Assembly (NCBI GenBank): GCA_002774875.1
Contig: PCYM01000006.1
Location: 17,434 to 81,433, forward strand
Reading direction: 5' to 3'
Length of the DNA: 64,000 nt
Origin: Candidatus Uhrbacteria bacterium CG10_big_fil_rev_8_21_14_0_10_50_16
GTDB taxonomy: Bacteria > Patescibacteriota > Patescibacteriia > UBA9934 > UBA11717
In this document: in pieces, positions 1-48,795 of the stretch
How positions within the stretch are numbered: the stretch's first letter is position 1
Layout: each line of letters starts with the position of its first letter
Program-made: the position numbers and the translations under genes
The notes under the pieces: generated by a model
The model's input: only the letters and a program-made list of their open reading frames with translations
What the model was told of the DNA's origin: nothing
Database searches by the model: none

Positions 1-1
1 A

Positions 2-1104: not shown

Positions 1105-1155
1105 CGTAGGAAATTGCCAGTTTTAGAAATCCATCTTACAAAACTTGATACATCT

Positions 1156-2895: not shown

Positions 2896-2989
2896 ATCCG
2901 TATTATACGACACTTGGTGCAGACGAGCGAGTGTGAATTGACAAACAACCCAATTTACGTTAGGTTGGATCTGTTGGCGCTGCACACAA

Positions 2990-3470: not shown

Positions 3471-3479
3471 TCGATTACT

Positions 3480-3743: not shown

Positions 3744-3750
3744 TTTTCCG

Positions 3751-3780
3751 TCCCCGCGGCTTTGTTGTCGCGGGGATTTG
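3751..3780 (+). terminator. rho-independent terminator after rpsO
   Basis: TCCCCGCG-loop-CGCGGGGA followed by TTTGG. Confidence 0.6.
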
Positions 3781-3975
3781 GCTAACAAGATCCTAGTCGT
3801 GTTCGGTTCTGCTGAATACGCCCGGTACCTTGTACCGTTTTATAAACATTTTGGGAGGTTTTGTTGGAAAAACGTAACACCGTTTCCTTTATTCCTAATT
3901 GTGCGGTTTTCTCAAATTTGTGCCGCACACAATCGCGTCACGCATGTTCCACGCATCTCTCAATCACTTTTTATC

Positions 3976-4707
3976 ATGATCCATCACAAACATCAGCGTG
4001 TCGGTGTCTTTATCGACGTACAGAATCTGTACTATAGCGCTCGTAATCTCTATAACCGAAAGGTAAACTTTGGCAATATTGTCAAAAAGGCGGTTGGAGC
4101 CCGCCAACTCATTCGTGCAACTGCGTACGTCGTTTCTACAAAAACCGGAGAGAACCAGCCGTTTTTTGACGCGCTCAATAATCTTGGAATCGAAACCAAG
4201 GAGAAAGAGCTCATGGAATACGACGGTGGCCAAAAGAAGGCCGACTGGGACGTTGGTATTACCGTGGACGCCATTAGCTCCGCACCAGATTTAGACGTGA
4301 TCATTCTCGTCTCCGGTGACGGTGACTACATGCCACTCATTGATTACCTCCACAGCAGAGGAAAATTTGTAGAGGTTGCAGCATTCCGAGAAACAACATC
4401 TTCTCGTCTTATCGAGAAGGTTGGGAGCTCAAACTACATCAACTTGTCGGAGAATAAGCGTAGTTTCCTCATTCCAACTGGTAGCCACGGAGCCGGAACG
4501 ATGGTATCAGACACAACCTCCGCTCAACCGCTTGCACAGGAGAAGGTTGAGGCAAAACCTGTAGTTAGATCTCTTTCAAAACCTCAAATCAAGCACATGC
4601 AAGCACCCGCTCCCAAGCAGATTCGTTACCCTGCGCGAGCTCACGTTACTGCAAAACCTGTAGATTACGACGGACTCTCACCCAATGAGCGTGCCTTAAA
4701 CAATTAG
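3976..4707 (+). CDS. NYN-domain (LabA/DUF88-like) protein
   Basis: VGVFIDVQNLYYSARNL ... VILVSGDGDYMPLI matches the NYN/PIN-like fold. Start placed at MIHHKHQRVGVF; the C-terminal third is low complexity. Confidence 0.75.
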   Translation: MIHHKHQRVGVFIDVQNLYYSARNLYNRKVNFGNIVKKAVGARQLIRATAYVVSTKTGENQPFFDALNNLGIETKEKELMEYDGGQKKADWDVGITVDAISSAPDLDVIILVSGDGDYMPLIDYLHSRGKFVEVAAFRETTSSRLIEKVGSSNYINLSENKRSFLIPTGSHGAGTMVSDTTSAQPLAQEKVEAKPVVRSLSKPQIKHMQAPAPKQIRYPARAHVTAKPVDYDGLSPNERALNN

Positions 4708-4883
4708 AAACCCGTTGTCTCATAAGCTACGGCTTGTGAGCAACGAAGCGTGCATATCAACACAGAGCGTCAGATGATATGATTGCTTCGTCGCTAAAAC
4801 GACATCTCATTCACAGCCTGGTGGCAAGATAGAGACCTCAACACATTGAGTTCTTGAGTCTGACTGCCAGGGGAACCAATTTT

Positions 4884-12233: not shown

Positions 12234-12258
12234 CCGTGCCTTGTGCACGGATTTTTTG
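12234..12258 (+). terminator. rho-independent terminator after yidD
   Basis: CCGTGCC-TTGT-GCACGG followed by ATTTTTTG. Confidence 0.5.
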
Positions 12259-12307
12259 TTTCTTATTGTGCAACTATTATTTACTACAACCCCAATCTTG
12301 GCCAAAA

Positions 12308-12391
12308 CTATCCACAGTATTCACGACTTATGCACGAATGCTGTGGACAACTTAGAGCTTATAAACAGGCTTTCTATTCAACTGTGGATAT
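12308..12391. promoter_or_regulatory. DnaA-box cluster upstream of dnaA
   Basis: CTATCCACA 12308-12316, TGTGGACAA 12342-12350, TGTGGATAT 12383-12391. Confidence 0.55.
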
Positions 12392-12471
12392 GTGGTATGA
12401 TTCTGTCACTCGGAAATACAGCCAGGCGCACGGCCGTTAGTCCGCTTCACGCGTATCACTCAAACAAAATT

Positions 12472-13842
12472 ATGGATACACAAGAGTTGTGGGAAACCAC
12501 ATTAGGGGAGCTTGAATTAGAGCTCTCAAAGGCAAATTTTACAACCTGGTTCAAGGACACGTTCATCACCGAGATCACACACGACCATATCGTCATTGCG
12601 GTCCCCAACAATTTCACAAAAACATGGTTAGAGAATAAATATCATAAAAGTATTCTCAAATCTCTACAGAGGGCAACAAGTGACGCCGTACGAGAAGTAA
12701 CATACAACGTAGAGGTAAAAGGATCCTCAAACGGCCCACAACCAATCCCGATTCATAATACCCAGGTTGATACATCGATTGCCTTTAGTCGTAGTGACCT
12801 GCAGGACGATCCAATCGGAAACACCCTCAATCCACGCTACACTTTTGATGCTTACATCGTCGGAAAACAAAACGAGTTTGCTCATGCTGCCGCCATGGCT
12901 GTTCCTAAAAATCTCGGAACCACCTACAACCCCCTATTTATCTACGGAGGCGTAGGACTTGGCAAAACGCATCTTTTACAAGCAATCGGGCATGAGGTTG
13001 TTCAGCTCAACCCCGGAAAGCGTGTACTCTACGTTACGAGTGAGAAGTTCACCAATGATTTTATCCAGGCCGTTAGAACCGGACGTGCGCGTGAGTTTAA
13101 AGATGTTTATAGAACCGTGGACGTGTTAATTGTGGATGATATTCAGTTTTTTAGTGGAAAAGTAGAAACACAGGAAGAGTTTTTTCACACATTCAACGCA
13201 CTTCACCAGCAGAACAAGCAGATCATCTTGTCCGCCGATCGACCACCAAAACTCATCACCGCGTTAGAAAATCGTCTTTTATCCCGTTTTGAATGGGGAA
13301 TGACGGCCGATATCAGTAGCCCCGACTATGAGACACGTGTTGCGATATTGGAGGCAAAGTGTCGAGAGCGTCAATGGAGCATGCCACAAGAGGTCATGCG
13401 CCACGTTGCGGACAATATCCAATCAAATGTTCGCGAACTTGAAGGCGCCCTTAATAAAATTATTGCGTACCATCAGTTAAAAAATCAGGTACCAACCTTG
13501 GAATCCGTTGCCCCAATTGTGCAGAGTTTTAGGCCCGTAGACATCATAAAAACGGCCACTCCGCGAGAACTTATGCATGTGGTGGCTGAGTACTATGACA
13601 TAACTATGGACGAGCTCGTTGGAAAAAGTCGAGAGAAGCGACTCGCATTTCCACGTCAAATCATTATGTATCTCTTGCGCGAGGATATGAGTTATTCCTA
13701 CCCATCAATTGGACAGGAGCTCGGCGGAAGAGACCACACGACAGCAATGCACGCCTATTCAAAAATAAAGCGCTGCCTCGAATCGGATGAGAAGCTGTGT
13801 CACGATATGGAGATCATTAAGCAGCGATTGTACGCAGCATAA
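12472..13842 (+). CDS. dnaA: chromosomal replication initiator protein DnaA
   Basis: Start placed at MDTQELWETTLGELE (the longer ORF begins inside the DnaA-box region). AAA+ GGVGLGKTHLLQAIG and a C-terminal HTH. Confidence 0.95.
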   Translation: MDTQELWETTLGELELELSKANFTTWFKDTFITEITHDHIVIAVPNNFTKTWLENKYHKSILKSLQRATSDAVREVTYNVEVKGSSNGPQPIPIHNTQVDTSIAFSRSDLQDDPIGNTLNPRYTFDAYIVGKQNEFAHAAAMAVPKNLGTTYNPLFIYGGVGLGKTHLLQAIGHEVVQLNPGKRVLYVTSEKFTNDFIQAVRTGRAREFKDVYRTVDVLIVDDIQFFSGKVETQEEFFHTFNALHQQNKQIILSADRPPKLITALENRLLSRFEWGMTADISSPDYETRVAILEAKCRERQWSMPQEVMRHVADNIQSNVRELEGALNKIIAYHQLKNQVPTLESVAPIVQSFRPVDIIKTATPRELMHVVAEYYDITMDELVGKSREKRLAFPRQIIMYLLREDMSYSYPSIGQELGGRDHTTAMHAYSKIKRCLESDEKLCHDMEIIKQRLYAA

Positions 13843-29934: not shown

Positions 29935-30174
29935 AGAAAGTCGCATTAAAGATATATCGAGTATACAGCAAAGTATGGGGTTGTGTTTAAAATCTTCTTG
30001 CCGCATAAAATCCCTCCATGTTGGCTGTGAAGGATTTTTGACGTCTCTATTTAAATGATGGGCGAGAGAGTTGACAATTTGTAGATATTCTGTTATAAAA
30101 AACATGTTTTTAGATGTGTGGCGACCAAAAGGTCAAAGCACAATGGCAGTTCATCATTCAGTAGGGAGATCGTC

Positions 30175-30480
30175 ATGTCGGGTGATCTAAAATGCAGCTT
30201 CTGCGGCAGGAAGCCAAAGGAAGTTCGGGCCATGGTCAAGAGTCCAGACGCGAACATCTGCAACGAGTGCACGCTGTTGTGTCTCGATGTGATGCAAGAC
30301 AGCGGGATGGACGACCCTGTTCGCCGTGCCGATATCAAGGGGGAGCTCCGCTGGTTGATCTTCGGGGAAGCAGAGGATGGGAGCGAGTGCGATCCCAACA
30401 GCGAGAGACTCATCCTGGTGAGGGAGGTGATCGCCGAGCATCAAGCGAAGGTGGTCAGTGAGGACAAGCCGACCGACTGA
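30175..30480 (+). CDS. stand-alone ClpX-type C4 zinc-finger (ZBD) protein
   Basis: LKCSFCGRKPKEVRAMVKSPDANICNECTLLCLDVM matches the ClpX N-terminal zinc-binding domain (CSFCGK...ICDEC..LC). No AAA+ module; acidic tail; RBS AGGGAG; GC ~58%. Confidence 0.6.
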   Translation: MSGDLKCSFCGRKPKEVRAMVKSPDANICNECTLLCLDVMQDSGMDDPVRRADIKGELRWLIFGEAEDGSECDPNSERLILVREVIAEHQAKVVSEDKPTD

Positions 30481-30833
30481 GGTCGCTCAACCGTCCAACC
30501 GAGACAGCTACACGAGCTGCCTACTCCGGTGGGCGGTTTCGTGTTTTATATTGATCTCACTTTATATTTAACCTGCGTAACCAAAACGCATGTGTTTGAA
30601 GATAAGCCTCCTCGACGAAGTATTTCAGCAATTAGGAGCGAGGAGTTGTGCAAAAATAAGGGACAAGCCGGCGCCATGCTTACAAGACCTTATCTCTGAC
30701 AAGCTGTCTTCTGCGTGCGAACGCACGCAGAGTGGCGTGGCCTGCCGAGTCACTTATTTTTGCACCACTCCGGGCGCTCCTTGACGTAGACCCACATTTT
30801 GGCTATTGTTCCGGCACAAAATCAATTACACGT

Positions 30834-32265: not shown

Positions 32266-32490
32266 ACTTTAAAACACATGCGTTTTGAGAATTGCGCTCG
32301 GTGCATTGCTTTAAATAATCTGCAAGGAGTCGTCGATGTACCAGTGTATTGCCTGCGTCTGCTAAAGATTGGGTCGACGCCCAACACGGATTATTTAGAA
32401 GCAACACGCCTCGCTCCTACATTGCTAAACTTCTTCGCTGAGTTCATTCATCTTCAAACACACGTGTTCTCGGGGGCGAAGTCTAGATGA
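32266..32490. repeat. intergenic repeat, family B copy 1 (related to 37897-38030)
   Basis: Shared segments CGCTCC(C)TACATTGC..GAACT..CTTCG..GAG..TCTTCAAACACA and TGTTCTCGGGG(G/A)CGAAG, plus AAACACAnGCGTTTTGAGAAnnnTGCGCT. Confidence 0.5.
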
Positions 32491-32574
32491 GATTAGAAAT
32501 TTAAGCCGAAATCTGTACGACTGTGAGAAAATCACCTTAAGTTGATAGGAGCAGAAGTTGGTAATTTGATATCT

Positions 32575-36518: not shown

Positions 36519-37721
36519 TTAAAACTCTCGTAGATCGATTGTTGTGTCAGAAAGGGGTCGCGATAGTTCACAGAGCCGTTGTTTTGATTTGATCAGAGCA
36601 ATGATTGGAGCGCGATCGGTGTTGTGTTTAAGGAGCGATGCACCGACGACGCGATCTCCTCGCACAAAGAGCAGCGTGCGACCGTCGCCATAATCACGGG
36701 CTAATACCTGTTCGGCGTGTACAATGTTTGCATCTCCAATTGCCACAATATCAATCCCTAGCACATGCGTGGCATAGGAGGAAACGAGCTCAAACGGTGC
36801 GCGCTCACCTGTCATAACCTTTGCAACATGTCGACCCTGCATCTGTGCATTCATCCAATTACCAATGTGCACTTGGCGATTAACAATTGTGTCCATATAC
36901 TCGGTACAATCACCTGCCGCGTAAATATCGGTGACGTTTGTTTCTAAAAACTCGTTGGTTTTTACACCGGTTCCAACGGTAACTCCTGCATCGGACGCCC
37001 AGGAAAATTGACTGCTGATTCCAACGCCTGCGGCCAATACATCAAAGGGAAACGTCCCGTTGTCCTCCGTCTTTGCAATAGCTCCATTGTAAGAGGCAAG
37101 GGACATGTTTTTGTGAACGGTGATGTTGTGCGCTGTGAGGTGTTCCTCGAGTAGGTCGGAAGAGGCTTGGTCAAACGTGTGAGAAAAAAAGGTCGTTCCC
37201 CGCAAAAAAAGGTGCGTACTCCAGGATTTGTTGGCAAAAAGTTCGGCAAACTCCATAGCAATGAATCCACCGCCAATGAGTCCGGCTTTGAGACCTGCAG
37301 ATGTGTGATCATCCAGGAATTCCTTAATGCGGTCGGCGTCCTCGATCGTTTGAAAGTGTAAAACATGTTCCTCGCCAGGCCAGGGGAGATGACGAGTAAT
37401 TCCGCCGCCTGCGATCAGGAGTTTTGTGTAGGTATAGGTGGCGCCGGAGGTCGTTGTGACTGTTTTTGTTTGTGGATGGATGTGTTGCACCTCTTGGATA
37501 GCGAGGTGGATGTTTTGTGTTTGGTACCAATCGGGTGTTTTTAAAAAGACCCGTTCGCGAGGGGTTTTGCCAGTGATGTAGTGGGGGAGGAGCACACGCG
37601 AATAAAGTGGATGGTCCTCGTTGCTAAGGATGGTGATCTCCGATGTTGGGTCCAGCTTGCGAAGTTGTTCAGCGGCCGAAGTCCCTGCGATTCCTCCGCC
37701 AATAATCAGGTAATGGGTCAT
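36519..37721 (-). CDS. FAD-dependent pyridine nucleotide-disulfide oxidoreductase (NADH oxidase / CoA-disulfide reductase-like)
   Basis: MTHYLIIGGGIAGTSAAE Rossmann motif and a second NAD(P)-binding GGGFIAMEFA. Confidence 0.85.
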   Translation of the reverse strand: MTHYLIIGGGIAGTSAAEQLRKLDPTSEITILSNEDHPLYSRVLLPHYITGKTPRERVFLKTPDWYQTQNIHLAIQEVQHIHPQTKTVTTTSGATYTYTKLLIAGGGITRHLPWPGEEHVLHFQTIEDADRIKEFLDDHTSAGLKAGLIGGGFIAMEFAELFANKSWSTHLFLRGTTFFSHTFDQASSDLLEEHLTAHNITVHKNMSLASYNGAIAKTEDNGTFPFDVLAAGVGISSQFSWASDAGVTVGTGVKTNEFLETNVTDIYAAGDCTEYMDTIVNRQVHIGNWMNAQMQGRHVAKVMTGERAPFELVSSYATHVLGIDIVAIGDANIVHAEQVLARDYGDGRTLLFVRGDRVVGASLLKHNTDRAPIIALIKSKQRLCELSRPLSDTTIDLREF

Positions 37722-37896
37722 AGTGATTGGATTGTATCAAGGATCCCGGTCTGTATCGAGAGGTCGCTCGGATTGTGTTTAAAAAAGTGACTCGGAAGTA
37801 GAGACACGTCTTCGTGCCTTCGCACTCAGAAGACAGCTAGCCAGGAGTAAGCCTTGTACGTCTCTATCCGATTGTCCCTTTTTGTAAACACAACCC

Positions 37897-38030
37897 TTCG
37901 CTCCCTACATTGCCTGAACTCCTTCGTCGAGTACTCTTATCTTCAAACACAGTCGTTTTGAGAAGACTTGCGCTGTGGCTCCATCTTTCAAAACACCTGT
38001 GTTCTCGGGGACGAAGGCTGGATCTGATAA
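37897..38030. repeat. intergenic repeat, family B copy 2
   Basis: CGCTCCCTACATTGCCTGAACTCCTTCGTCGAGTACTCTTATCTTCAAACACAGTCGTTTTGAGAAGACTTGCGCT...TGTTCTCGGGGACGAAGGCTGGATCTGAT is collinear with 32266-32490. Confidence 0.5.
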
Positions 38031-38075
38031 GGTCCAGATCTGACCCATGCATCTCACACTTATACGAATCCTCAA

Positions 38076-38112
38076 TATTCAAATATGTGACGATCGCCCG
38101 TATTTTGAAACA
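38076..38112. repeat. palindromic element, family A (degenerate copy)
   Basis: TATTCAAATATGTGACGATCGCCCGTATTTTGAAACA: TTCAAA/TTTGAA arms around a GACGATCG core. Confidence 0.5.
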
Positions 38113-38170
38113 GGTGGTTTTAAGAGATTTCAACAAACCGCAATAAACAATGATTTAAGAGGCGATGAAG

Positions 38171-38210
38171 AAATATCAAACATGTGACGATCGGCACATG
38201 TTTGATATTT
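38171..38210. repeat. palindromic element, family A (perfect 16-bp arms)
   Basis: AAATATCAAACATGTG-ACGATCGG-CACATGTTTGATATTT. Confidence 0.6.
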
Positions 38211-38274
38211 GGACACGATAGTAATTTTTAGGATTATCTGGATGCCTGACTTCAAACTCTCAATGAAAACGAAA

Positions 38275-38299
38275 CGCGCTCCAGGATTCCTGGAGCGCG
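38275..38299 (-). terminator. rho-independent terminator at the left edge of the GC-rich island
   Basis: CGCGCTCCAGG-ATTC-CTGGAGCGCG (11-bp stem); on the minus strand it is followed by TTTCGTTTTC. Confidence 0.6.
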
Positions 38300-38384
38300 T
38301 CGTTCGTGTTCTGATCTGACTCAACCCAGGACGGGGAGTCTGTTCTCTCGCGCACGATCAGCATTGCGCGAGGTGGGGGGCGGC

Positions 38385-39200
38385 TCAGGTCTCCTCGTCG
38401 TCGGTGGCCGTCGTGGGGCGGGGGGCGAACTGGAGGAACTTCCCGCCCCTCCGAATCGGCCACCAGCCCATCACGGCATAAAAGGCGAACAAGCCTCCCA
38501 CACCGCAGAGGGCGAGCCCCATGAGGATGTAGGCCAGGGCCCACATCCCCCGAGGCTCGCCGGCGGGGTTTGTGCCGGCGCCGGCCACCATCACCGCCAG
38601 GCCCCAGAGGGCCAGGACCATGGCGGGGATGAGGGCGTAGAGCCGCAACATCCCAGCTGAGGTGGTGGTGAAGGGCTCCTTGGCGATCTTCACCACCTTC
38701 TCCTTCTTCCTCTCCACCACCTTGTAGAACACCGTCGGCTTGGTGCCGATGGTCCCGAGGTTGAGGGCCTTCTTGGCCGGTGGGGTAGACCCTCCGACAG
38801 GGGTGAAGGTGAATCTGGCCAGCTTCACCTTCTTGGCCGGAGCCGTCGGAGGGGCGGGGGCGGCCGCAGGGGCAGCTTTGGGAGCTGCCTTCGGTGCAGC
38901 CTTTGGAACTGCGGGTGCCGCGGGAGGCGGGACCGGTGCAGCCTTGGCCGCCGGCACGAGGGCGGCGCACTGCCGTGCTACCCACTCTCGCCGCGAGGTC
39001 TCCGTCTCTCCGCCGCCAAAGGGCCGGCGGAGGTTGACGGCTGCCTCCAAATCCCCCTGGAGCCCTCTGGCAGCTTCCACCCAGGCCAGGAGGTCGGGGT
39101 TGGGGGTGGTCTCGAGGATCACCATGTAGTGACCCTTTGAGACCTCGTCGGGGCCCAACGCAACGCCGGTACTCCGGAGGAGCCTGAATCTGTGGGCCAT
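38385..39200 (-). CDS. hypothetical membrane protein (island gene 1): N-domain, (KAAP)n linker, C-terminal TM hairpin
   Basis: 271 aa from MAHRFRLL with RBS AAAGGAGG; ~65% GC with GC3 bias. Pro/Ala/Lys-rich linker AAPKAAPKAAPAAAP. Two C-terminal TM helices. No recognisable family. Confidence 0.7.
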   Translation of the reverse strand: MAHRFRLLRSTGVALGPDEVSKGHYMVILETTPNPDLLAWVEAARGLQGDLEAAVNLRRPFGGGETETSRREWVARQCAALVPAAKAAPVPPPAAPAVPKAAPKAAPKAAPAAAPAPPTAPAKKVKLARFTFTPVGGSTPPAKKALNLGTIGTKPTVFYKVVERKKEKVVKIAKEPFTTTSAGMLRLYALIPAMVLALWGLAVMVAGAGTNPAGEPRGMWALAYILMGLALCGVGGLFAFYAVMGWWPIRRGGKFLQFAPRPTTATDDEET

Positions 39201-39265
39201 GCGGCCTCCTTTCCGGGCGTTTAGCCCTTGTTTTTGGGGTTTCTCACATCTTGTGTGAGCCAAGC

Positions 39266-39294
39266 AACATACCAGAAAAATGCAATTTTGTCAA
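39266..39294 (-). promoter_or_regulatory. sigma70-like promoter for island gene 1 (TTGACA-17-TATGTT on the minus strand)
   Basis: On the minus strand: TTGACAAAATTGCATTTTTCTGGTATGTT. Confidence 0.5.
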
Positions 39295-39316
39295 TGGGGG
39301 AGGTGTTTGGGTGAGG

Positions 39317-39345
39317 GTTGACAAAACCGTGTTTTTCTGGTATAT
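39317..39345 (+). promoter_or_regulatory. sigma70-like promoter for island gene 2 (TTGACA-17-TATATT)
   Basis: TTGACAAAACCGTGTTTTTCTGGTATATT, a near-identical mirror image of the minus-strand promoter 22 bp away. Confidence 0.55.
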
Positions 39346-39451
39346 TTCTACGTTATTCCTTAGGAATAGCCGCGGCTTCTGCCGTGTTGAACCGTTCTCT
39401 AAAATTGAAACGCGAAAGCGTACGAGACACCCAACACGGAAGGAGCCAAAT

Positions 39452-41452
39452 ATGGCACCCAAGAAGACCCCGTCCCCTACCGTTCCATTTTGGAAGACGG
39501 TGGAGGACATGATCGGCCAGCAGGTCGGTCACGCGGCAGGTAAGGGCCTGTCGCACTCCCACATCGTCACCCTCCTGGTGTCGATGATGAACGATCAGGT
39601 TCTCGGAGCGCTCAGGTTGGCGGGGCCGTCTTTGACGGCCGGCGTCGGCAAGACGGCGTTCCAGGTTTTGAAGGGCCGGATCCCGGTCCTCAAGAACCTC
39701 GCGGATCCCGTTCTGGAGGAGGCCATGGAGGGCCTCCTCAACGGGTTCTTCTCCCACCTCGCCAAGTTCCCCGGTGCGACGGACGCCCAGGCGCGCATGG
39801 CTCTGTTGGCTGCGGCCAACGAGTCCATGATCGCGCACGCCCCGGTCTCCGGGGGGGCGGTCAAGCCCGGCAGCTTCGTGCTGTCGGATGCCGTGCTCAA
39901 GGCCTTGGAGGAGAAGTACGACGAGGACTCCGTCAGGGAGATCCTCGCGTGGTACTGCCACGGGGTGAGCTGCCTCGCAAGGGCAGCCCTGGACATGAAC
40001 GTCCAGGACAGCCTCGCCGTGGAGGCCGGGATGGCCTTCAACCACGGCGATTTCTCGAGCGTGGTCTCCGTGATCACGTTCGTGGAGACGGCCAAGAAGC
40101 ACCAGGGATCCTTCGAGAACCTGGTATACGCGTGCGCGGCCGTGGTCCAGGCCAACACCGCCGCCGACCACAGCGGCATGCGGACCACGTTCATGGCGCG
40201 CCGCTTGTTGGCGCGCGGCCTCAACTGGCTCGGGGTCAACGGGACCCGCCAGAACTTCATGAACGTTCTCGGGAACTGGATCGCCCCCGGACTGCTCAAG
40301 GACGGGCAGTTCGTGGCGTTCCTCGTGGCCCTCTGGGTCGCGTGCTACGTGACCACGGCGGTTCCGTGGTTCTACGCCGCGCGTGCGGGGAGCTTCGTCG
40401 GGATGTTCATCCTTGCGGCGCTCAATCTGATCGTGACCCAGTTCACCCTCAAGGTGCTGGGTCTGGTCGTCGGGGTTCATTCGTCCCTGTACCGGGGAGT
40501 GCTGCACTTCCTCGGCCAGAAGGAGGAGGGTGGCGGGGACAAGCTTCCTGCCCTCCAGTCCCTGAGGGCGCAGGCCTCCAGCCCCCTGCTGGTGGCTACT
40601 GTGCTCAACGCGATCTTGATTTTGCTCCTGGGGGAGACCCCGCGAGCATTCAACTTCGCGATCATGATCTTGATGGCGACCGTCTCGGTCGGTATCCTGA
40701 TCAGCATCTGGGACATGGCCAAGACGAGCCACGCCAAGTTCTTCCTCGATGCGGGGATCAAGTACCTCCTCCCCGTTTTGCTGGCCTCCATGGCCTGGGA
40801 CGTGTACGACGCCTTCACCCAGAGCCAACTCCCCGGCAAGGGGATGCGGCTCATGGGCAATGTCCACGAGTTCTGGGGCTGGGCGACCAGCTTCAGCATG
40901 GGACAGGTGGTCACGGGAGGACTCACGATCCTCTTGGTGGCCGCAGTCGCCTTCGCCCTCAAGCAGGGCAAGGTGTGGCACGCGATCGCCCTCGTGGTGA
41001 TCGCGGTCCCCCTCTCGTGGATCGTGGACTGCTCCGTTTCGGCGCCCAAGCGCGCCGAGGCCGCACAGGAGCAGAGGGCGCAGGAACATGCCCTCCAGCT
41101 GGAGACCCTTCGTCTCCAGCGGCAGGTGGCGGAGGCGGGGAAGACCGTCATTGTCGTCGGCGACCCGGTCCTCGCAATGCGTCAACTGGGTGGCCCCACC
41201 CGCAAGGCGGACATCGCCCTGCGGGTGCCTCGCGAAAGCTCGGCTGCAACCGAGCGCGAGGAGATCCAGATTGAGGATGAGGAAGAGTGGGAGGAGGACC
41301 TCGACATGTTCGTGCCGGAGAAGCCGAACATCAGAGAGATCCTCCGCGAGCGGGAGGAAAGGGCACAGCGTACGGTTCACCACCGTCCGCGGCCCTCCTC
41401 CCGCCGCACGTCGGCCCACCACCACCGCGCGCAACGGAATGCGCGTAGGTGA
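39452..41452 (+). CDS. hypothetical large polytopic membrane protein (island gene 2)
   Basis: 666 aa from MAPKKTPSPTV with RBS AGGAG. ~330-aa soluble N-domain, ~7 predicted TM helices, a coiled-coil (EAAQEQRAQEHALQLETLRLQRQVAEAG) and a charged RE-rich tail. ~65% GC; no recognisable family. Confidence 0.75.
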   Translation: MAPKKTPSPTVPFWKTVEDMIGQQVGHAAGKGLSHSHIVTLLVSMMNDQVLGALRLAGPSLTAGVGKTAFQVLKGRIPVLKNLADPVLEEAMEGLLNGFFSHLAKFPGATDAQARMALLAAANESMIAHAPVSGGAVKPGSFVLSDAVLKALEEKYDEDSVREILAWYCHGVSCLARAALDMNVQDSLAVEAGMAFNHGDFSSVVSVITFVETAKKHQGSFENLVYACAAVVQANTAADHSGMRTTFMARRLLARGLNWLGVNGTRQNFMNVLGNWIAPGLLKDGQFVAFLVALWVACYVTTAVPWFYAARAGSFVGMFILAALNLIVTQFTLKVLGLVVGVHSSLYRGVLHFLGQKEEGGGDKLPALQSLRAQASSPLLVATVLNAILILLLGETPRAFNFAIMILMATVSVGILISIWDMAKTSHAKFFLDAGIKYLLPVLLASMAWDVYDAFTQSQLPGKGMRLMGNVHEFWGWATSFSMGQVVTGGLTILLVAAVAFALKQGKVWHAIALVVIAVPLSWIVDCSVSAPKRAEAAQEQRAQEHALQLETLRLQRQVAEAGKTVIVVGDPVLAMRQLGGPTRKADIALRVPRESSAATEREEIQIEDEEEWEEDLDMFVPEKPNIREILREREERAQRTVHHRPRPSSRRTSAHHHRAQRNARR

Positions 41453-41533
41453 TGTAAACCCCGGTGCAACGCCGGGGTTAGGACACAGGTTGCTCAGCAC
41501 CTAGGACCCAAAGCTGAGTACTCACGAAGACAT

Positions 41534-41575
41534 CACCCTCGACCGGTTCACGGTCGGGGGTGTCTTCTTTTTTAC
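41534..41575 (+). terminator. rho-independent terminator at the right edge of the GC-rich island
   Basis: CACCCTCGACCG-GTTCA-CGGTCGGGGGTG followed by TCTTCTTTTTT. Confidence 0.6.
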
Positions 41576-41773
41576 AATAGGTGTTTGGCTTTTGCTGTTT
41601 CACCGTTCGTTGCGCCTGTGTCTTTGTATTTATCTTTCATTTTTTTGATCATTCCATCTCAGATCGCTTCGTCTTCCCTCCCTCGTTCATTTCTTTTGTT
41701 TGCTCACTCACCTCCACCAAACTTATTTACATCTGCCATATCAAAAATGTCGTACCTATGACAAATCTGATAC

Positions 41774-41806
41774 AAAAAAACACCCGCCAAGAGGCGAGTG
41801 GTTTTA
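41774..41806 (-). terminator. rho-independent terminator at the end of the pilin-like operon (minus strand)
   Basis: On the minus strand: CCACTCGCC-TCTT-GGCGGGTG followed by TTTTTTT. Confidence 0.55.
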
Positions 41807-41854
41807 TCTGATTCGATCTCACTGGATCCGATCAATTTGCTACTCAACTTGTTA

Positions 41855-42259
41855 CTAGACCTGGGAGGCGAGCAGGAGCTGGCTTATCGCGAAGTTGGAA
41901 ATTGCGAATGCGGACAGAATAATGATCATGCCAATAACTCCCTGTGTAAGCATCGTGGTTGCCTTGGTCACTTTTGCAGGATCTCCTTGCGCGGTCATCC
42001 AAATAAAACCTGCGTAGAGTGTAATGAGGAAGAAGATGATTCCCAAGAGACCCAAGAGCACGTTTACAACGTTTCCGATTGTATTAAAGATCTGATCTTG
42101 GCCTCCACCTCCGATGGTTGTAATATCTGCCGCCTGATCAAGCGCAGCCGTTGGGTCACCCGCATCAAAAACTGCTTGCGCAGGAATTGAGAATGCAAAG
42201 GCGCCGAGAAGGAGGAAGCTCGCAAAGAGTGTTGTGAAGAATTGTTGTGTGCGTGTCAT
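41855..42259 (-). CDS. small secreted two-helix hairpin protein, paralog 1 (VirB2/TrbC pilin-like)
   Basis: Sec signal peptide with AQA cleavage. Shares with the other four paralogs the core IGNVVNVLLGLLGIIFFLITLYAGFIWMTAQGDPAKVTKA...GVIGMIIILSAFAISNFA. Confidence 0.7.
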   Translation of the reverse strand: MTRTQQFFTTLFASFLLLGAFAFSIPAQAVFDAGDPTAALDQAADITTIGGGGQDQIFNTIGNVVNVLLGLLGIIFFLITLYAGFIWMTAQGDPAKVTKATTMLTQGVIGMIIILSAFAISNFAISQLLLASQV

Positions 42260-42297
42260 AGGTAAAAAGTTGAATCAATGTGTTTTAGAGAGAACCG

Positions 42298-42693
42298 TTA
42301 AACGTTTGTTGCAATATCGAGCTGCGTTACCACAAAGTTGGTAATGGAGAACGCCGAGAGCAGTATGAGGAGGCCGATAGTGGCTGTGACGAGAATGTCT
42401 TGCGCTTTCTTTACTTTGGCCGGGTCCCCTTGCGCCGTCATCCAGATCGTCCCTGCATAGACAAACAGGATAAAGACGAGTAGTCCTGAGAGCCCTACGA
42501 CCACATCGATAATTCTACCAATGAGGAAGGGGAGTGATACAGGGTCAGACGCAAACGCTGCAGCAGAAGCGGTTTCGCTCAGCCCTGTCGTCTCCGCGTT
42601 AATGACGGCTAAAACAGGGGTTGCAACGGCAAGACCAAAGAAGAGAAAGAGCGACATGCCCGCCAACAACAGTCGTTGTTTGGTTGCGGTCAT
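42298..42693 (-). CDS. small secreted two-helix hairpin protein, paralog 2
   Basis: Signal peptide ...PVLA; core IGRIIDVVVGLSGLLVFILFVYAGTIWMTAQGDPAKVKKAQD...IGLLILLSAFSITNFVV. Confidence 0.7.
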   Translation of the reverse strand: MTATKQRLLLAGMSLFLFFGLAVATPVLAVINAETTGLSETASAAAFASDPVSLPFLIGRIIDVVVGLSGLLVFILFVYAGTIWMTAQGDPAKVKKAQDILVTATIGLLILLSAFSITNFVVTQLDIATNV

Positions 42694-42778
42694 AACGTGA
42701 GAGGACGAGGATTCATCTGCTCACGCCAGGACCCACAAGGGGCGCCCCTCCCGATTTGGGAGGGGTAGGGAACCTAGC

Positions 42779-43222
42779 TTACTCAGTGATCGAGTTTGCT
42801 GTTGCGCTAATAAACTCAGTAATAACGAAGTTGGTGATTGCGTAAGCGGAGAGAATGATCGCAAGCCCAATCGCACCTGCCACAATAATCTGCTGTGCTT
42901 TTTGTACTTTTGCTTCCGTTCCACCAGCGGTCATCCAAATGGCACCACCGTAGAGAATGATAATGACAGCTACGATTCCCAAAAATCCAAGTAGCACGTT
43001 AATGATGTTTCCGATTGTGGACTTGAGGTTTGCCTGTCCAAGCCCTGTTGCACCCGTAAAATCATCACTCAACAAATCATCGGCCGTGAGTGTTGACGCC
43101 GCGTGTGCACTATCAACGAGCACAGGTGTAAGCATAGACACGGCCATGGTACCGCCAAACAAGAGGGCAGCGATTGCGAACGATGTAAGAAGGTTGCGAA
43201 GAGCGAAACGTACGTTGGTCAT
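42779..43222 (-). CDS. small secreted two-helix hairpin protein, paralog 3
   Basis: Core IGNIINVLLGFLGIVAVIIILYGGAIWMTAGGTEAKVQKAQQ...IGLAIILSAYAITNFVI. Confidence 0.7.
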   Translation of the reverse strand: MTNVRFALRNLLTSFAIAALLFGGTMAVSMLTPVLVDSAHAASTLTADDLLSDDFTGATGLGQANLKSTIGNIINVLLGFLGIVAVIIILYGGAIWMTAGGTEAKVQKAQQIIVAGAIGLAIILSAYAITNFVITEFISATANSITE

Positions 43223-43245
43223 ACAGTGTTTGTTTTTATGACAGC

Positions 43246-43581
43246 TTAGGCTGCTGTCGCGCCACCAAGTGTGTTGATGACGAAGGTTGCTAAAATGTTT
43301 GCCGCGAAAATAACCGCGAGGCCTATGACCGCCCAGATGAGCGTGTCTCTTCCTTTTGTAATTCTGTCAGGTTTACCTCCGGCCGTCAACCAAAGAAATC
43401 CACCCCAAATAACCATGGCCAATGCGAGCGATCCGGTGATTCCAAGAACCGCCTGAATCACGAATCCTATGAGCTGCGGAATACTGCGTGACCCCAATGG
43501 ATTGTACAACTGACTTGCAAACGCTGCTTGCGGTAATAGGCTCAAACCGAGTGAGAGAAACAAATAGTAGAGACGCTTCAT
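43246..43581 (-). CDS. small secreted two-helix hairpin protein, paralog 4
   Basis: Signal peptide ...AAFA; core IGFVIQAVLGITGSLALAMVIWGGFLWLTAGGKPDRITKGRD...IGLAVIFAANILATFVI. Confidence 0.7.
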   Translation of the reverse strand: MKRLYYLFLSLGLSLLPQAAFASQLYNPLGSRSIPQLIGFVIQAVLGITGSLALAMVIWGGFLWLTAGGKPDRITKGRDTLIWAVIGLAVIFAANILATFVINTLGGATAA

Positions 43582-43584
43582 AAT

Positions 43585-44136
43585 CTATGGTTGTTGAATA
43601 TAACATTCGCCTTCTGCATCGGTCGTGTCACAACAAACACCCGCTTTACAGATAAATCCTGGAGCACAGGCTTTTCCATTGTTGAGTTGCTCGGAAACTG
43701 GCGCGGGTGGTGGTGCACCACAGGTAAGGAATTCACTGCTACTCACGCTGCTTGCATCACCGCTGCGCAAGACGTTGACGCCGTACTGCACGCCAGAGAA
43801 CGCCCCGAAGACAATCAGAAGTCCAATAAAGGAAGAGATAAACATCTTGGTTGCCTTGGTTACCTTTGCAGAATCTCCACGCGCGGTGAGATAGAGAACA
43901 CCTCCCCAAACAATTACGACGAGCAGAATAATCCCCACCATTCCCATAAGGATATCGGCAATGTTGATAAAGAGCTGTAGCGCGCAGTCGAGGGCAAGAT
44001 TTGCATCTGGTCCCCCAGGCTTTGTCGCACATGTGGGAATAATACCGGACGCATCGATTGCGGTTCCTGTTGAGAGTCCCGGTGTATTGGGAATCGTCGC
44101 ATTCGCCGCGAGCGCTGTATGGATAAATGGGATCAT
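43585..44136 (-). CDS. small secreted two-helix hairpin protein, paralog 5, with a Cys-rich C-terminal extension
   Basis: Core ...ILMGMVGIILLVVIVWGGVLYLTARGDSAKVTKATK...IGLLIVFGAFSGVQY, followed by CGAPPPAPVSEQLNNGKACAPGFICKAGVCCDTTDAEGECY. Confidence 0.7.
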   Translation of the reverse strand: MIPFIHTALAANATIPNTPGLSTGTAIDASGIIPTCATKPGGPDANLALDCALQLFINIADILMGMVGIILLVVIVWGGVLYLTARGDSAKVTKATKMFISSFIGLLIVFGAFSGVQYGVNVLRSGDASSVSSSEFLTCGAPPPAPVSEQLNNGKACAPGFICKAGVCCDTTDAEGECYIQQP

Positions 44137-46661: not shown

Positions 46662-46699
46662 GGTTTCAAATATGCGACGATCGTCGGTGTTTTGAAACC
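46662..46699. repeat. palindromic element, family A (38-bp copy)
   Basis: GGTTTCAAATATGCGACGATCGTCGGTGTTTTGAAACC: 9-bp outer arms plus an inner self-complementary CGACGATCGTCG. Confidence 0.6.
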
Positions 46700-46778
46700 G
46701 AGCAAAATGATCTATAGAGTGTATATGTTGCCTATGATATTTGATCTGATCGCATCAGACCTGTACATATCACTATAC

Positions 46779-46870
46779 GGAGAGGTGCCAGAGTGGTCGA
46801 ATGGGCTTGACTCGAAATCAAGTGAGCTACGCAAGTGGTTCCGAGGGTTCGAATCCCTCCTTCTCCGCCA
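46779..46870 (+). tRNA. tRNA-Ser (anticodon CGA)
   Basis: GGAGAGG...long variable arm...GAGGGTTCGAATCCCTC-CTTCTCC-G-CCA; anticodon loop ctCGAaa. Confidence 0.85.
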
Positions 46871-48757: not shown

Positions 48758-48795
48758 GGTTTCAAATATACGACGATCGTCGGTGTTTTGAAACC
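48758..48795. repeat. palindromic element, family A (38-bp copy, followed by a T-run)
   Basis: GGTTTCAAATATACGACGATCGTCGGTGTTTTGAAACC followed by TTTTTGG; it could act as a terminator for the preceding gene. Confidence 0.6.

What the first reader, a model, noticed from the sequence alone, without database searches (positions are those of the whole stretch)
38275..41575. 3.3-kb high-GC island encoding two divergent membrane proteins of unknown family
Composition jumps from about 48-50% GC to about 65% GC across 38.3-41.6 kb. The six-frame track shows long antisense ORFs here (715 aa, 441 aa, 292 aa), which is typical of GC-rich coding DNA. The segment is bounded by hairpin terminators at 38275-38299 and 41534-41575, with family-A palindromes on the left and a polypyrimidine tract on the right.

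It carries only two genes, both with strong Shine-Dalgarno sites:
- A 271-aa protein with an N-terminal ~70-aa domain, a (KAAP)n Pro/Ala/Lys linker and a C-terminal double-TM hairpin.
- A 666-aa protein with a ~330-aa soluble N-domain, about seven TM helices, a coiled-coil and a highly charged RE-rich tail.

I recognise no Pfam-like signature in either. This looks like a horizontally acquired two-gene membrane module and is my best candidate for an undescribed system.
Basis: partly seen in the sequence, partly recalled or inferred. Interest (0 to 1): 0.85.

Follow-up and report, generated by a model that had tools for sequence, protein, structure and literature searches.

The report
GC-rich fast-evolving membrane cassette in Uhrbacteria
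The GC-rich 3.3-kb segment is real, but it is not a recent foreign import: it is a fast-evolving, uncharacterised two-gene membrane cassette that fills the same chromosomal slot in all related Uhrbacteria examined, is always abnormally GC-rich, and encodes unusually tightly folded mRNAs.

Summary
GC is 0.64 across 38.27-41.58 kb against 0.485 elsewhere. Gene A (38385-39200, -) and gene B (39452-41452, +) have GC3 of 0.83 and 0.88 (z = 8-9), and neither matches any known family.

The reading as a horizontally acquired island does not hold. A/B relatives sit in the same slot (PGI, Pyr_redox | cassette | five VirB2-like pilins, SBP) in every B-family contig recovered from Uhrbacteria-type genomes. 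Similarly built GC3-rich genes fill the slot in more distant relatives. There, cassette GC3 is 0.72-0.94 where flanks are 0.45-0.77.

Cassette proteins diverge far faster than the flanks (B 46% identical where flanks are 83-97%). In the window/L001 pair the cassette is instead less diverged at synonymous sites than its flanks, with mosaic dS. This indicates exchange between lineages.

A conserved pair of back-to-back strong promoters drives the genes, and the B leader sequesters its Shine-Dalgarno site. The coding regions fold far more stably than synonymous-codon shuffles (gene-level z = -10 for B). Neighbouring genes and natively GC-rich genes do not.

Best reading: a clade-wide, strongly transcribed inner-membrane module, possibly partnering the pilin array. 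Its GC richness is actively maintained, probably by selection for mRNA structure. Biochemical function is unknown.

The parts
37722..38270 (.). Non-coding left arm (GC 0.43) made of palindromic or dispersed short repeats. It belongs to the block that is more alike between the window and L001 than the flanks are.
   Evidence: 89-95% nt identity to L001 against ~76% in flanking genes. Palindrome at 38171-38210 and a repeat at 38079-38096. Further copies at 30582-30759, 32411-32496, 46665-46698 and 48761-48794. The L003 rearrangement breakpoint lies at about 37763.
38273..38301 (-). Intrinsic terminator of gene A (13-bp stem, then a U-run). It also scores on the + strand.
   Evidence: The 3' UTR folds with z = -4.2. 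It is nearly invariant in L001 and L003.
38385..39200 (-). Gene A, 271 aa. It has a ~80-aa N-domain, a Pro/Ala/Lys linker (KAAP repeats), a basic segment and a C-terminal TM hairpin. GC3 is 0.83.
   Evidence: dN/dS 0.36 against L001. No family match.
39266..39294 (-). Promoter of gene A: TTGACA-17-TATGTT with an extended -10 TG.
   Evidence: 10 of 12 matches. It is one of only two matches in the 64-kb window to the strict motif TTGACA-N8-10-T[TA]TTnTGnTAnnnT.
39263..39349 (.). 32-nt inverted repeat. Its two arms are the back-to-back A and B promoters (the twin promoter).
   Evidence: I1, 81% complementary. Conserved in all six B-family loci aligned and seen again in the L011, L049 and L050 upstream sequences, read by eye. 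The strict-motif regex finds back-to-back pairs in window, L001, L044, L048, L028 and L030.
39318..39346 (+). Promoter of gene B: TTGACA-17-TATATT with an extended -10 TG.
   Evidence: 11 of 12 matches..
39347..39451 (+). Leader (5' UTR) of gene B. It has a 5' hairpin and a long stem that pairs an upstream anti-SD with the Shine-Dalgarno site GGAAGGAG.
   Evidence: MFE -37.9 kcal/mol, z = -4.9. The same SD-sequestering arrangement recurs with different sequences in the L044, L046, L047 and L048 leaders.
39452..41452 (+). Gene B, 666 aa. It has a ~285-aa helical N-domain (motif AFNHGDFS), 6-8 TM segments (motifs NWxAP and, in most relatives, FRWQA), a long helix, the motif GGPTR and an Arg/Glu-rich tail. 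GC3 is 0.88 and the mRNA is hyper-structured.
   Evidence: dN/dS 0.27 with mosaic dS. RNA folding excess.
41534..41562 (+). Intrinsic terminator of gene B (12-bp stem, then a T-run).
   Evidence: The 3' UTR folds with z = -5.5. The right edge of the block that aligns well with L001 is at 41577.
41855..44136 (-). Neighbouring array of five VirB2-like pilin genes (PF18895 T4SS_pilin), convergent with B and of native composition. It is the conserved right-hand neighbour of the cassette and the proposed functional partner.
   Evidence: Same neighbour in L001, L044, L046-L050 and L011.

Best explanation
**What it is (shown).**
- The segment is the local allele of a clade-wide cassette that fills a fixed chromosomal slot in Uhrbacteria-type Patescibacteria.
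- The slot lies between the Pyr_redox/PGI genes and a five-gene VirB2-like pilin array plus a solute-binding protein.
- The cassette holds two genes here (A, B) and four in some relatives (A, B, a signal-anchored coiled-coil protein C, and a TM + coiled-coil + Cys-domain protein D).
- Everywhere it is the GC3-richest thing in its neighbourhood.
- Its proteins diverge far faster than the flanks.
- Alleles do not track the flanks and show mosaic synonymous divergence, so they are exchanged between lineages by recombination.

**How it is expressed (shown at sequence level).**
- Two back-to-back near-consensus sigma-70 promoters with extended -10 elements are conserved across alleles whose proteins are only ~20-30% identical.
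- The B leader hides its Shine-Dalgarno site in a long stem.
- The coding RNAs are far more structured than synonymous-shuffled versions.

**How it most likely works (inferred).**
- A and B are inner-membrane proteins whose mass is mostly cytoplasmic.
- They are made from abundant, very stable but translationally gated mRNAs.
- They probably form a membrane complex that serves the adjacent pilin array, as a host-contact or secretion platform. A VirB6-like platform role for B is the best guess.
- The GC richness is not a mark of foreign origin. An active force acting on the coding sequence maintains it.
- That force is most likely selection for RNA secondary structure at synonymous sites, with recombination-associated GC-biased fixation as a possible contributor.
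For: **Same slot in relatives.**
- Same synteny and A/B relatives in L001-L008, L044, L046, L047, L048, L049, L050 and L011.
- These B-family cassette genes have GC3 0.79-0.94 against 0.42-0.77 for flanks.
- Slot genes of like size and layout in L039, L014, L017-L021, L023-L025, L027, L028, L030 and L033 are also GC3-elevated, by +0.08 to +0.43.

**Fast divergence and exchange.**
- L046 against L048: flanks 83-97% identical, A 29%, B 46%.
- Window against L001: flanks 78-91%, B 86%.
- dS is 0.33 (B) and 0.59 (A) against 0.86 to >2.8 for flanks.
- A block of elevated identity spans 37700-41577 and includes non-coding DNA.
- dS along B ranges from 0.09 to 0.77.
- dN/dS is below 1 throughout.

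**Promoters and leader.**
- Promoter motif conserved and nearly restricted to cassettes; only two matches in the window.
- Leader structure.

**GC enrichment confined to coding DNA.**
- In the window, GC is 0.40-0.55 in the promoter core and the two 5' UTRs, and 0.56-0.63 in the 3' UTRs.
- In other alleles, embedded and flanking spacers range 0.43-0.65. The C-B spacer in L011 is 0.43 and the B-A spacer in L049 is 0.49.
- GC3 in coding DNA is 0.8-0.9.

**RNA structure excess.**
- All 13 windows of 150 nt in B have z from -1.2 to -6.4 against dinucleotide shuffles, mean about -3.1.
- 16 control windows from Pyr_redox, PGI and SBP have mean about +0.1.
- Against synonymous-codon shuffles, gene-level z is -10.3 (B) and -3.8 (A).
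- Other alleles and families: -5.4 (L046), -3.5 (L050), -2.8 (L011), -6.3 (L021), -2.8 (L025).
- Four window controls range -1.35 to +1.06, and three natively GC-rich genes range -1.0 to +1.6.
- The sense strand is more structured than the antisense (z -9.8 against -6.0) and has more G-U pairs.

**Pilin context.** VirB2-like pilin arrays are a described feature of these bacteria (bioRxiv 10.1101/2025.01.22.634366, read).
Against: **Function rests on neighbourhood and architecture only.**
- No sequence similarity to VirB6/TrbL or any other family.
- Both AlphaFold models failed (pLDDT 45 and 38).
- No VirB4 or VirD4 in the window.
- B is convergent with the pilin operon, not co-transcribed.

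**Slot proteins may not all be related.** Those of the more distant loci fall into several groups with no provable homology to B. 'One cassette type' rests on position, architecture, GC3, the promoter motif and the folding excess.

**Structure selection is not proven.**
- Individual predicted base pairs are not conserved between the window and L001. Two-sided changes keep 7 pairs and break 7, and one-sided changes keep pairs no better than slid controls.
- So any selection would be for overall foldedness, or the excess could arise from a mutational process that makes local inverted repeats.
- The antisense strand also shows an excess, so a DNA-level cause is not excluded.

**GC shift is not confined to third positions.** GC1, GC2 and Gly/Ala/Arg/Pro content are also raised, clearly in A and weakly in B. 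This fits a general GC-directed pressure as well.

**Promoter motif is not cassette-specific.** A few matches elsewhere drive genes of normal GC3.
Confidence: 0.5

Rival explanations
1. Recent horizontal acquisition: a two-gene module imported from a GC-rich donor and not yet ameliorated.
For: - Sharp composition jump bounded by terminators.
- GC1, GC2 and amino-acid usage are also shifted.
- The cassette block is less diverged between the window and L001 than the flanks are, so some horizontal movement does occur.
- Some Uhrbacteria are natively 62-63% GC (L014, L020) and could act as donors.
Against: - The slot is filled by related or like-built GC3-rich genes in every relative examined, down to ~20% B identity, and no empty site was found.
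- Flanking genes are saturated at synonymous sites even in the closest pair, so neutral amelioration should be far advanced. Yet all alleles keep GC3 of 0.72-0.94.
- In the natively GC-rich genomes the slot genes are still above background: L014 0.92 against 0.76, L020 0.86 against 0.78.
- No integrase, direct repeats or tRNA target.
- No homologue outside the slot in 1.84 billion representative proteins, nor in viral, phage or plasmid collections.
- Embedded spacers are mostly not GC-enriched.
Confidence: 0.06
2. A membrane-based anti-phage or exclusion system (abortive-infection or superinfection-exclusion type) sitting in a variable hotspot. The cytoplasmic domains would sense an invader, the TM part would act on the membrane, and an arms race would drive the fast evolution.
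For: - Orphan, fast-evolving membrane proteins with large cytoplasmic domains.
- Allele replacement at a fixed site between conserved genes.
- Strong constitutive promoters combined with translational gating.
- The cassettes have variable gene content, 2-4 genes.
Against: - No PADLOC match of any weight. The best is E = 0.007 over 60 residues.
- Defence systems are typically patchy, whereas this slot is filled in essentially every lineage examined.
- No nuclease, ATPase or other effector domain was found.
- It gives no reason for the GC3 and RNA-folding anomaly.
Confidence: 0.15
3. Same cassette, different cause of the GC richness: a recombination hotspot in which GC-biased gene conversion, or another local AT-to-GC fixation bias, drives GC upward. 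The RNA-folding excess would then be a side effect.
For: - Recombination signals at the locus.
- Recombining genes have higher GC3 in most bacterial groups tested, mostly through non-optimal codons (PMC4450053, read).
- GC1, GC2 and Gly/Ala/Arg/Pro usage are also raised.
- The 3' UTRs are at 0.56-0.63 against 0.45 +/- 0.07 for intergenic DNA.
- Highly expressed-type genes of the window (trigger factor, PNPase, H+-PPase) are not GC3-rich, so codon optimisation is unlikely.
Against: - Several spacers embedded in cassettes stay at or below the locus average: 0.43 in L011, 0.49 in L049, 0.40 in the window promoter core. They may, however, be constrained.
- By my recollection, not checked here, the +0.35-0.40 GC3 shift is far larger than the shifts reported for bacteria.
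- Biased conversion does not predict more folding than synonymous shuffles of identical composition, nor a stronger excess on the sense strand.
Confidence: 0.2
4. A remnant of an integrated element, such as a phage lysis or holin-spanin-like cassette, or an assembly chimera.
For: - Small membrane proteins, and lipoprotein-like or TM + coiled-coil partners in the four-gene versions.
- Composition differs from the host.
Against: - No meaningful PHROG match. The best is E = 9e-4 over a TM/linker stretch.
- No viral or phage hits.
- No integrase or other phage genes nearby.
- Identical junctions in independent assemblies from different samples and pipelines.
- Purifying selection on both genes.
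Confidence: 0.03

Closest known systems
Replacement (flexible) genomic islands, i.e. hypervariable envelope loci at fixed chromosomal positions such as O-antigen or cell-wall islands (own knowledge; example: the Haloquadratum cell-wall island, PMC4535781, seen in the listing)
   Same: - Fixed slot between conserved genes.
- Deeply divergent alleles that do not follow the flanks.
- Exchange by recombination.
- Envelope-related products.
   Different: - Such islands are usually AT-rich relative to the genome and carry recognisable enzymes.
- This one is strongly GC3-rich and holds only orphan membrane proteins.
- It keeps a conserved twin promoter.
- It shows an RNA-folding excess.
VirB6/TrbL-type polytopic subunits and VirB2-like pilin arrays of the Patescibacteria type IV secretion system (bioRxiv 10.1101/2025.01.22.634366)
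   Same: - A large polytopic inner-membrane protein encoded next to an array of divergent VirB2-like pilins.
- That paper finds VirB6 homologues scarce or absent in some well-represented phyla (read).
- The window is origin-proximal (dnaA at 12.2 kb), as that paper notes for many such systems.
   Different: - No match to PF04610 or any T4SS profile.
- No VirB4 or VirD4 nearby.
- B has a ~285-aa N-terminal soluble domain and a charged C-tail, which classical VirB6 lacks (from memory, not checked here).
- B is transcribed separately from the pilins.
Classical horizontally acquired genomic island
   Same: Sharp compositional discontinuity, orphan genes, own promoters and terminators.
   Different: - No mobility genes, tRNA or direct repeats.
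- No empty site in relatives.
- No donor.
- The anomaly persists across the whole clade.
Elevated GC3 in recombining bacterial genes, attributed to GC-biased gene conversion (Lassalle et al. 2015, PMC4450053)
   Same: Recombination signals coincide with raised GC3, mostly through non-optimal codons.
   Different: - The shift here (+0.35-0.40 GC3) looks much larger than I recall for that study; I did not check its magnitudes.
- It is largely limited to coding DNA.
- It is accompanied by excess RNA folding.
Selection for local RNA secondary structure in bacterial coding regions (Katz and Burge 2003, Genome Research; recalled from memory, not read here)
   Same: Native coding RNA folds better than codon-shuffled versions.
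   Different: - The effect here is gene-specific and, as far as I recall, far larger than the reported genome-wide effect (gene-level z about -10 where neighbours are near 0).
- It is coupled to a compositional island.

Membership tests
Recently acquired genomic island (HGT) | Composition atypical for the host genome | tested here: met
   GC 0.64 against 0.485. GC3 z = 7.8 and 8.9.
Recently acquired genomic island (HGT) | Absent from related genomes (empty site) or patchy distribution | tested here: not met
   The slot is filled in all relatives examined: L001, L011, L039, L044, L046-L050 and about 15 more distant loci.
Recently acquired genomic island (HGT) | Mobility signatures: integrase or transposase, flanking direct repeats, tRNA target | tested here: not met
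   - Only two genes, neither with a recombinase domain.
- No flanking direct repeats beyond chance-level short matches.
- The nearest tRNA is at 46779.
Recently acquired genomic island (HGT) | Identifiable donor lineage or element carrying close homologues | tested here: not met
   - Only 9 hits among 1.84 billion representatives, including the window protein itself.
- Every hit traced to a contig lies in the same Uhrbacteria slot.
- None in viral, phage or plasmid collections.
VirB6/TrbL family (T4SS polytopic subunit) | Match to the family profile (Pfam PF04610) or a homologous fold | tested here: not met
   - No Pfam hit at E <= 1 for B, nor at E <= 0.1 for the family alignment.
- No hit for 10 slot proteins at E <= 0.05.
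- The fold could not be tested because AlphaFold pLDDT was 38.
VirB6/TrbL family (T4SS polytopic subunit) | Polytopic inner-membrane protein with at least 5 TM segments | tested here: met
   6-8 hydrophobic segments between residues 287 and 530.
VirB6/TrbL family (T4SS polytopic subunit) | Encoded with other T4SS genes (VirB4 ATPase, VirB3, VirB8, coupling protein) | tested here: inconclusive
   Adjacent to five VirB2-like pilin genes. No VirB4 or VirD4 in the window or in the fetched loci.
Known anti-phage defence systems (PADLOC) | Match to a defence-protein profile | tested here: not met
   Only marginal partial hits: E = 0.007 for B and none for A.
Known anti-phage defence systems (PADLOC) | Sporadic presence among close relatives | tested here: not met
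   Near-universal occupancy of the slot.
Replacement-type hypervariable island | Same position between conserved flanks, with divergent alleles that do not follow the flanks | tested here: met
   - Identity matrix.
- Block of discordant identity.
- Mosaic dS.
Replacement-type hypervariable island | Several alleles coexisting within one species or population | not tested
   Exact-match look-ups return only identical proteins. Read-level population data were not available.
GC-biased gene conversion hotspot | Evidence of recombination, and GC3 raised more than total GC | tested here: met
   for recombination. GC3 is raised by 0.34-0.39 and total GC by 0.17.
GC-biased gene conversion hotspot | Non-coding DNA inside the tract equally enriched, and AT-to-GC fixation bias in polarised substitutions | tested here: inconclusive
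   - Spacers are at 0.40-0.65, mostly near background. The 3' UTRs are somewhat raised.
- Polarisation is impossible because the outgroups are saturated.
Coding region under selection for RNA secondary structure | Native RNA more stable than synonymous-codon and dinucleotide shuffles, where control genes are not | tested here: met
   B gene-level z -10.3, A -3.8, five other cassettes -2.8 to -6.3, seven control genes -1.35 to +1.6.
Coding region under selection for RNA secondary structure | Specific base pairs conserved through compensatory changes | tested here: not met
   - Window against L001: no better than slid controls.
- Substitution rates are only modestly lower at paired sites: 0.186 against 0.239 at third positions.

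The most novel reading that the evidence does not exclude
A compositional 'island' created from within, not by transfer. Throughout the diversification of Uhrbacteria, one strongly transcribed membrane-protein cassette has been held at GC3 of about 0.8-0.9 in genomes of GC3 0.4-0.8. The cause would be that its synonymous sites are recruited to build an exceptionally folded mRNA, and translation is gated by an SD-sequestering leader. The encoded A/B(/C/D) proteins would be the missing, unrecognisably divergent membrane platform of the VirB2-like pilin apparatus that these episymbionts are thought to use on their hosts.
Probability: 0.3. Interest if true: 0.8.

Novelty: new variant of a known kind. 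Interest (0 to 1): 0.62.

Why it matters
- **Island detection.** Composition-based island finders would call this segment foreign DNA. The comparative data show a vertically anchored slot whose deviant composition is maintained. It is a concrete counter-example to reading a GC jump as transfer.
- **GC content debate.** If selection for RNA folding is the cause, this is an unusually clean natural case for the argument over what sets bacterial GC content (selection or biased conversion). Gene-specific RNA-structure selection would be strong enough to move GC3 by almost 0.4.
- **Biology of these bacteria.** The cassette is a near-universal, strongly expressed, fast-evolving membrane module next to the pilin array. 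In other Patescibacteria that array is essential for life on a host. This makes A/B a good candidate for the lineage-specific part of the host-contact machinery and a target for genetics as these organisms become tractable.

Tried and rejected
- **AlphaFold2 of A and B.** With two-sequence alignments the models gave pLDDT 44.8 and 38.4. They are unusable, so no fold search was run.
- **Third word-index homologue search.** Run with the family alignment, it added nothing.
- **Degenerate-pattern scans.**
  - The 11-sequence alignment was too divergent to seed.
  - A 5-sequence alignment found nothing in JGI metagenome contigs or viral contigs.
- **Family and structure searches.** Nothing significant from phage or plasmid tblastn, Rfam, PDB sequence-profile searches, or Pfam, PADLOC and PHROG scans of A-, B-, C- and D-like proteins.
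- **Homology between slot-protein groups.**
  - Profile-profile comparison did not link B to the slot proteins of more distant loci.
  - The exceptions are L011 (98.7%) and a weak link to L039 (37%).
- **Alignment-based consensus fold of the B leaders.** Uninformative because of indels. Single-sequence folds were used instead.
- **Overlapping antisense gene as cause of GC3.** Rejected. The antisense frame is closed in other alleles, and its first codon position is the most variable site.
- **Codon optimisation for high expression.** Rejected as the main cause. Expressed-type genes in the window have GC3 of 0.45-0.51, and some genes behind the same promoter motif have normal GC3.
- **Compensatory-change test of predicted pairs, window against L001.** Negative.

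Full report

Yes. Sliding-window GC rises from 0.485 +/- 0.032 (maximum 0.586 in 236 outside windows) to 0.556-0.692 between about 38.27 and 41.58 kb.

The two genes are 38385-39200 on the minus strand (A, 271 aa) and 39452-41452 on the plus strand (B, 666 aa).
- Their GC1/GC2/GC3 values are 0.65/0.56/0.83 and 0.64/0.43/0.88. Neighbouring genes have GC3 near 0.5.
- Among about 70 ORFs in the window they are the only strong GC3 outliers, with z = 7.8 and 8.9 against 39 confident genes.
- The frames are right. GC3 is the highest codon position in both genes, and against the closest allele the third position is the most variable. dN/dS is 0.27 (B) and 0.36 (A).

Terminators at 38273-38301 and 41534-41562 and the Shine-Dalgarno sites are present. 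No Pfam, NCBIfam, PHROG or PADLOC family matches.

The long antisense ORF over B is a by-product of GC3. It depends only on the absence of TTA/CTA/TCA codons and is interrupted in other alleles.

**2. Where does the window come from, and is the segment an assembly artefact?**

B is identical to a hypothetical protein of Candidatus Uhrbacteria bacterium CG10_big_fil_rev_8_21_14_0_10 (COV06_03285). An 84%-identical protein, with a neighbouring A homologue, occurs in a second Uhrbacteria genome.

The same junctions were assembled independently in ENA, JGI, Logan and NCBI contigs from several samples, so a chimera is excluded. The window also carries dnaA (12241-13842) and ordinary housekeeping genes.

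**3. The segment is not a one-off insertion.**

A sensitive search of 1.84 billion representative proteins found nine B-family proteins, counting the window's own. Every relative that could be traced to a contig lies in the same arrangement: PGI and Pyr_redox, then an A-like gene, then divergently a B-like gene, then five VirB2-like pilin genes, a solute-binding protein and an NTP-transferase (L044, L046, L047, L048, L049, L050).

A scan of species-representative genomes with the Pyr_redox neighbour gave L011. A profile-confirmed B homologue (hhalign 98.7%) and an A-like gene sit in the same slot there, inside a 5-kb, four-gene GC-rich segment.

In all of these the cassette genes have GC3 of 0.79-0.94, and the flanking genes 0.42-0.77.

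More distant loci also carry a GC3-elevated gene of 600-830 aa in the slot: L039, L014, L017-L021, L023-L025, L027, L028, L030 and L033.
- These have the same layout, a long soluble N-part followed by 5-8 hydrophobic segments.
- The GC3 excess is +0.08 to +0.43 over the local median.
- Their sequences fall into several groups with no provable homology to B.

No empty site was seen.

**4. Evolutionary behaviour.**

Cassette proteins do not follow the flanks.
- L046 and L048 share 83-97% identity in flanking proteins but only 29% (A) and 46% (B).
- L044 and L046 share 72-91% in pilins but 34% in B.
- The window and L001 share 78-91% in flanks and 86% in B.

In the window/L001 pair the cassette is less diverged than its surroundings.
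- dS is 0.33 (B) and 0.59 (A) against 0.86 to >2.8 in flanks.
- A block of raised nucleotide identity runs from about 37700 to 41577. It includes the non-coding left arm at 89-95%.
- Within B, dS is mosaic: 0.09-0.28 in most of the N-domain, 0.55-0.77 in the TM region, 0.2-0.45 in the tail. dN/dS stays between 0.05 and 0.48.

Together these point to real, constrained proteins that evolve fast overall and whose alleles are exchanged between lineages by recombination. One contig (L003) has a different left flank, with the breakpoint in the repeat-rich arm.

**5. Expression signals.**

The 251-nt A-B spacer holds a 32-nt inverted repeat whose arms are two near-consensus promoters. These are TTGACA-17-TATATT for B and TTGACA-17-TATGTT for A, both with an extended -10 TG.

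This twin promoter, including an A-tract/T-tract spacer, is conserved in alleles with only ~20-30% protein identity.

A strict pattern for the motif matches only these two places in the 64-kb window. In other loci it is found almost only at the GC3-rich slot genes, including groups not demonstrably homologous to B, such as the back-to-back pairs in L028 and L030. A few matches elsewhere precede genes of normal GC3, so promoter strength alone does not explain the composition.

The B leader folds strongly (z = -4.9) and pairs the Shine-Dalgarno site with an upstream anti-SD. The same arrangement appears with different sequences in L044, L046, L047 and L048.

**6. What maintains the GC richness?**

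Recent transfer is very unlikely for three reasons.
- Flanks are saturated at synonymous sites even in the closest pair, yet every allele remains GC3-rich.
- In natively GC-rich relatives the slot genes are still above background.
- There is no donor or mobile element.

Codon optimisation is unlikely because trigger factor, PNPase and H+-PPase in the window have GC3 of 0.45-0.51.

The enrichment is largely confined to coding DNA.
- In the window, the twin-promoter core is 0.40, the leaders 0.49-0.55 and the 3' UTRs 0.56-0.63.
- In other alleles, spacers within and beside the cassette are 0.43-0.65.

The coding RNAs are much more structured than expected.

| Test | Gene or set | Result |
|---|---|---|
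| 150-nt windows vs dinucleotide shuffles | B, all 13 windows | z -1.2 to -6.4, mean about -3.1 |
| 150-nt windows vs dinucleotide shuffles | 16 control windows (Pyr_redox, PGI, SBP) | mean about +0.1 |
| Gene level vs synonymous-codon shuffles | B | -10.3 |
| Gene level vs synonymous-codon shuffles | A | -3.8 |
| Gene level vs synonymous-codon shuffles | L046 B | -5.4 |
| Gene level vs synonymous-codon shuffles | L050 B | -3.5 |
| Gene level vs synonymous-codon shuffles | L011 B | -2.8 |
| Gene level vs synonymous-codon shuffles | L021 slot gene | -6.3 |
| Gene level vs synonymous-codon shuffles | L025 slot gene | -2.8 |
| Gene level vs synonymous-codon shuffles | four window controls | -1.35 to +1.06 |
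| Gene level vs synonymous-codon shuffles | three natively GC-rich genes | -1.0 to +1.6 |

Synonymous-codon shuffles keep the protein, the codon usage and the GC3 periodicity. The sense strand shows the larger excess (-9.8 against -6.0 for antisense) and has more G-U pairs.

My preferred reading is that synonymous sites are under selection for a highly folded mRNA, which automatically favours G and C.

Caveats:
- Individual predicted pairs are not conserved between the window and L001.
- The antisense strand also shows an excess.
- GC1, GC2 and Gly/Ala/Arg/Pro usage are raised too.
- So recombination-linked GC-biased fixation (PMC4450053), or a process that creates local inverted repeats, may contribute.

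**7. What do the proteins do?**

This is inference only.
- A has an N-domain of about 80 aa, a Pro/Ala/Lys linker, a basic stretch and a TM hairpin with a very short outer loop.
- B has a ~285-aa helical N-domain with the conserved motif AFNHGDFS, 6-8 TM segments with short loops, a long helix, a GGPTR motif and an Arg/Glu-rich tail.
- Neither has a signal peptide, so most of the mass is probably cytoplasmic.
- Four-gene versions add a signal-anchored coiled-coil protein and a TM + coiled-coil + Cys-domain protein.
- Several B relatives carry a similar Cys domain fused at the C-terminus.

The only constant partner is the neighbouring array of five VirB2-like pilins. Such arrays are a described feature of Patescibacteria, and that paper finds VirB6 homologues scarce or absent in some of their phyla (bioRxiv 10.1101/2025.01.22.634366).

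I therefore rank a membrane platform for that apparatus first, at about 0.3, and a membrane-based exclusion or defence function second. Both AlphaFold models failed, so no fold evidence exists.

**8. Verdict.**

The 'horizontally acquired' reading is not, but 'undescribed system' is fair.

The closest known kind is a replacement-type hypervariable envelope island. This one differs in four ways:
- it is GC3-rich;
- it is near-universal in the clade;
- it is driven by a conserved twin promoter;
- it encodes hyper-structured mRNAs.

It is of moderate-to-high interest, mainly for the maintained compositional disequilibrium and the RNA-folding signal.

Noticed in passing
L003:3177-4055 (minus strand) and the L003 left flank, 1-5480: One JGI contig carries the same cassette, but to its left it has FUR, Gmad2 and DNA polymerase I genes in place of Pyr_redox/PGI. 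It also holds a second GC-rich (0.66-0.68) orphan gene of 292 aa with no Pfam hit. So GC-rich orphan genes are not limited to this slot.
   Followed up: partly
window 41578-41854: A 277-nt pyrimidine-rich, AT-rich spacer lies between B's terminator and pilin1. The corresponding gap in L001 is only about 44 nt. It is an insertion or deletion of unknown nature, and it contains the pilin1 terminator at 41781-41800.
   Followed up: partly
window 38079-38111, 38171-38210, 37781-37960; also 30582-30759, 32411-32496, 46665-46698, 48761-48794: A family of short palindromic, dispersed intergenic repeats (REP- or MITE-like; core TCAAACATGTGxCGATCGGCACATGTTTGA). Copies fill the non-coding arm left of gene A, vary in number between the window and L001, and mark the L003 rearrangement point.
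   Followed up: partly
window 30118-30480 (+); orthologous position L009:7684-8046: A 120-aa protein with a ClpX-type C4 zinc finger (PF06689, E = 3e-13) has GC3 of 0.74 in the window. A 120-aa ORF in the related genome has GC3 of 0.73. It is the only other clearly GC3-elevated gene in the window.
   Followed up: partly
window 12241-13842 and GC skew around 12-13 kb: dnaA lies here and the GC skew changes sign nearby. The window therefore spans the replication origin, and the cassette lies about 26 kb from it.
   Followed up: no
L010, L012-L014, L017-L019, L025, L026, L028, L030-L033, L038, L039, L041: Many species-representative records titled 'uncultured Gammaproteobacteria bacterium' carry loci with Pyr_redox homologues, many of them also with PGI and VirB2-like pilin arrays like those of the Uhrbacteria records. 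The record titles look like placeholder or wrong taxonomy.
   Followed up: no
L044:3-479 (minus strand): The A-like gene of this allele continues after the linker into a segment that reads like a PKD-type Ig domain (VTFTSTS...CDWEFG...FDVTLTVTDDAGG) in place of the TM hairpin. The gene is cut by the contig end.
   Followed up: no
window 46775-46870: A 96-nt stretch 100% identical between the window and L001, inside DNA that is otherwise about 77% identical. It is the tRNA-Ser (CGA) gene.
   Followed up: yes
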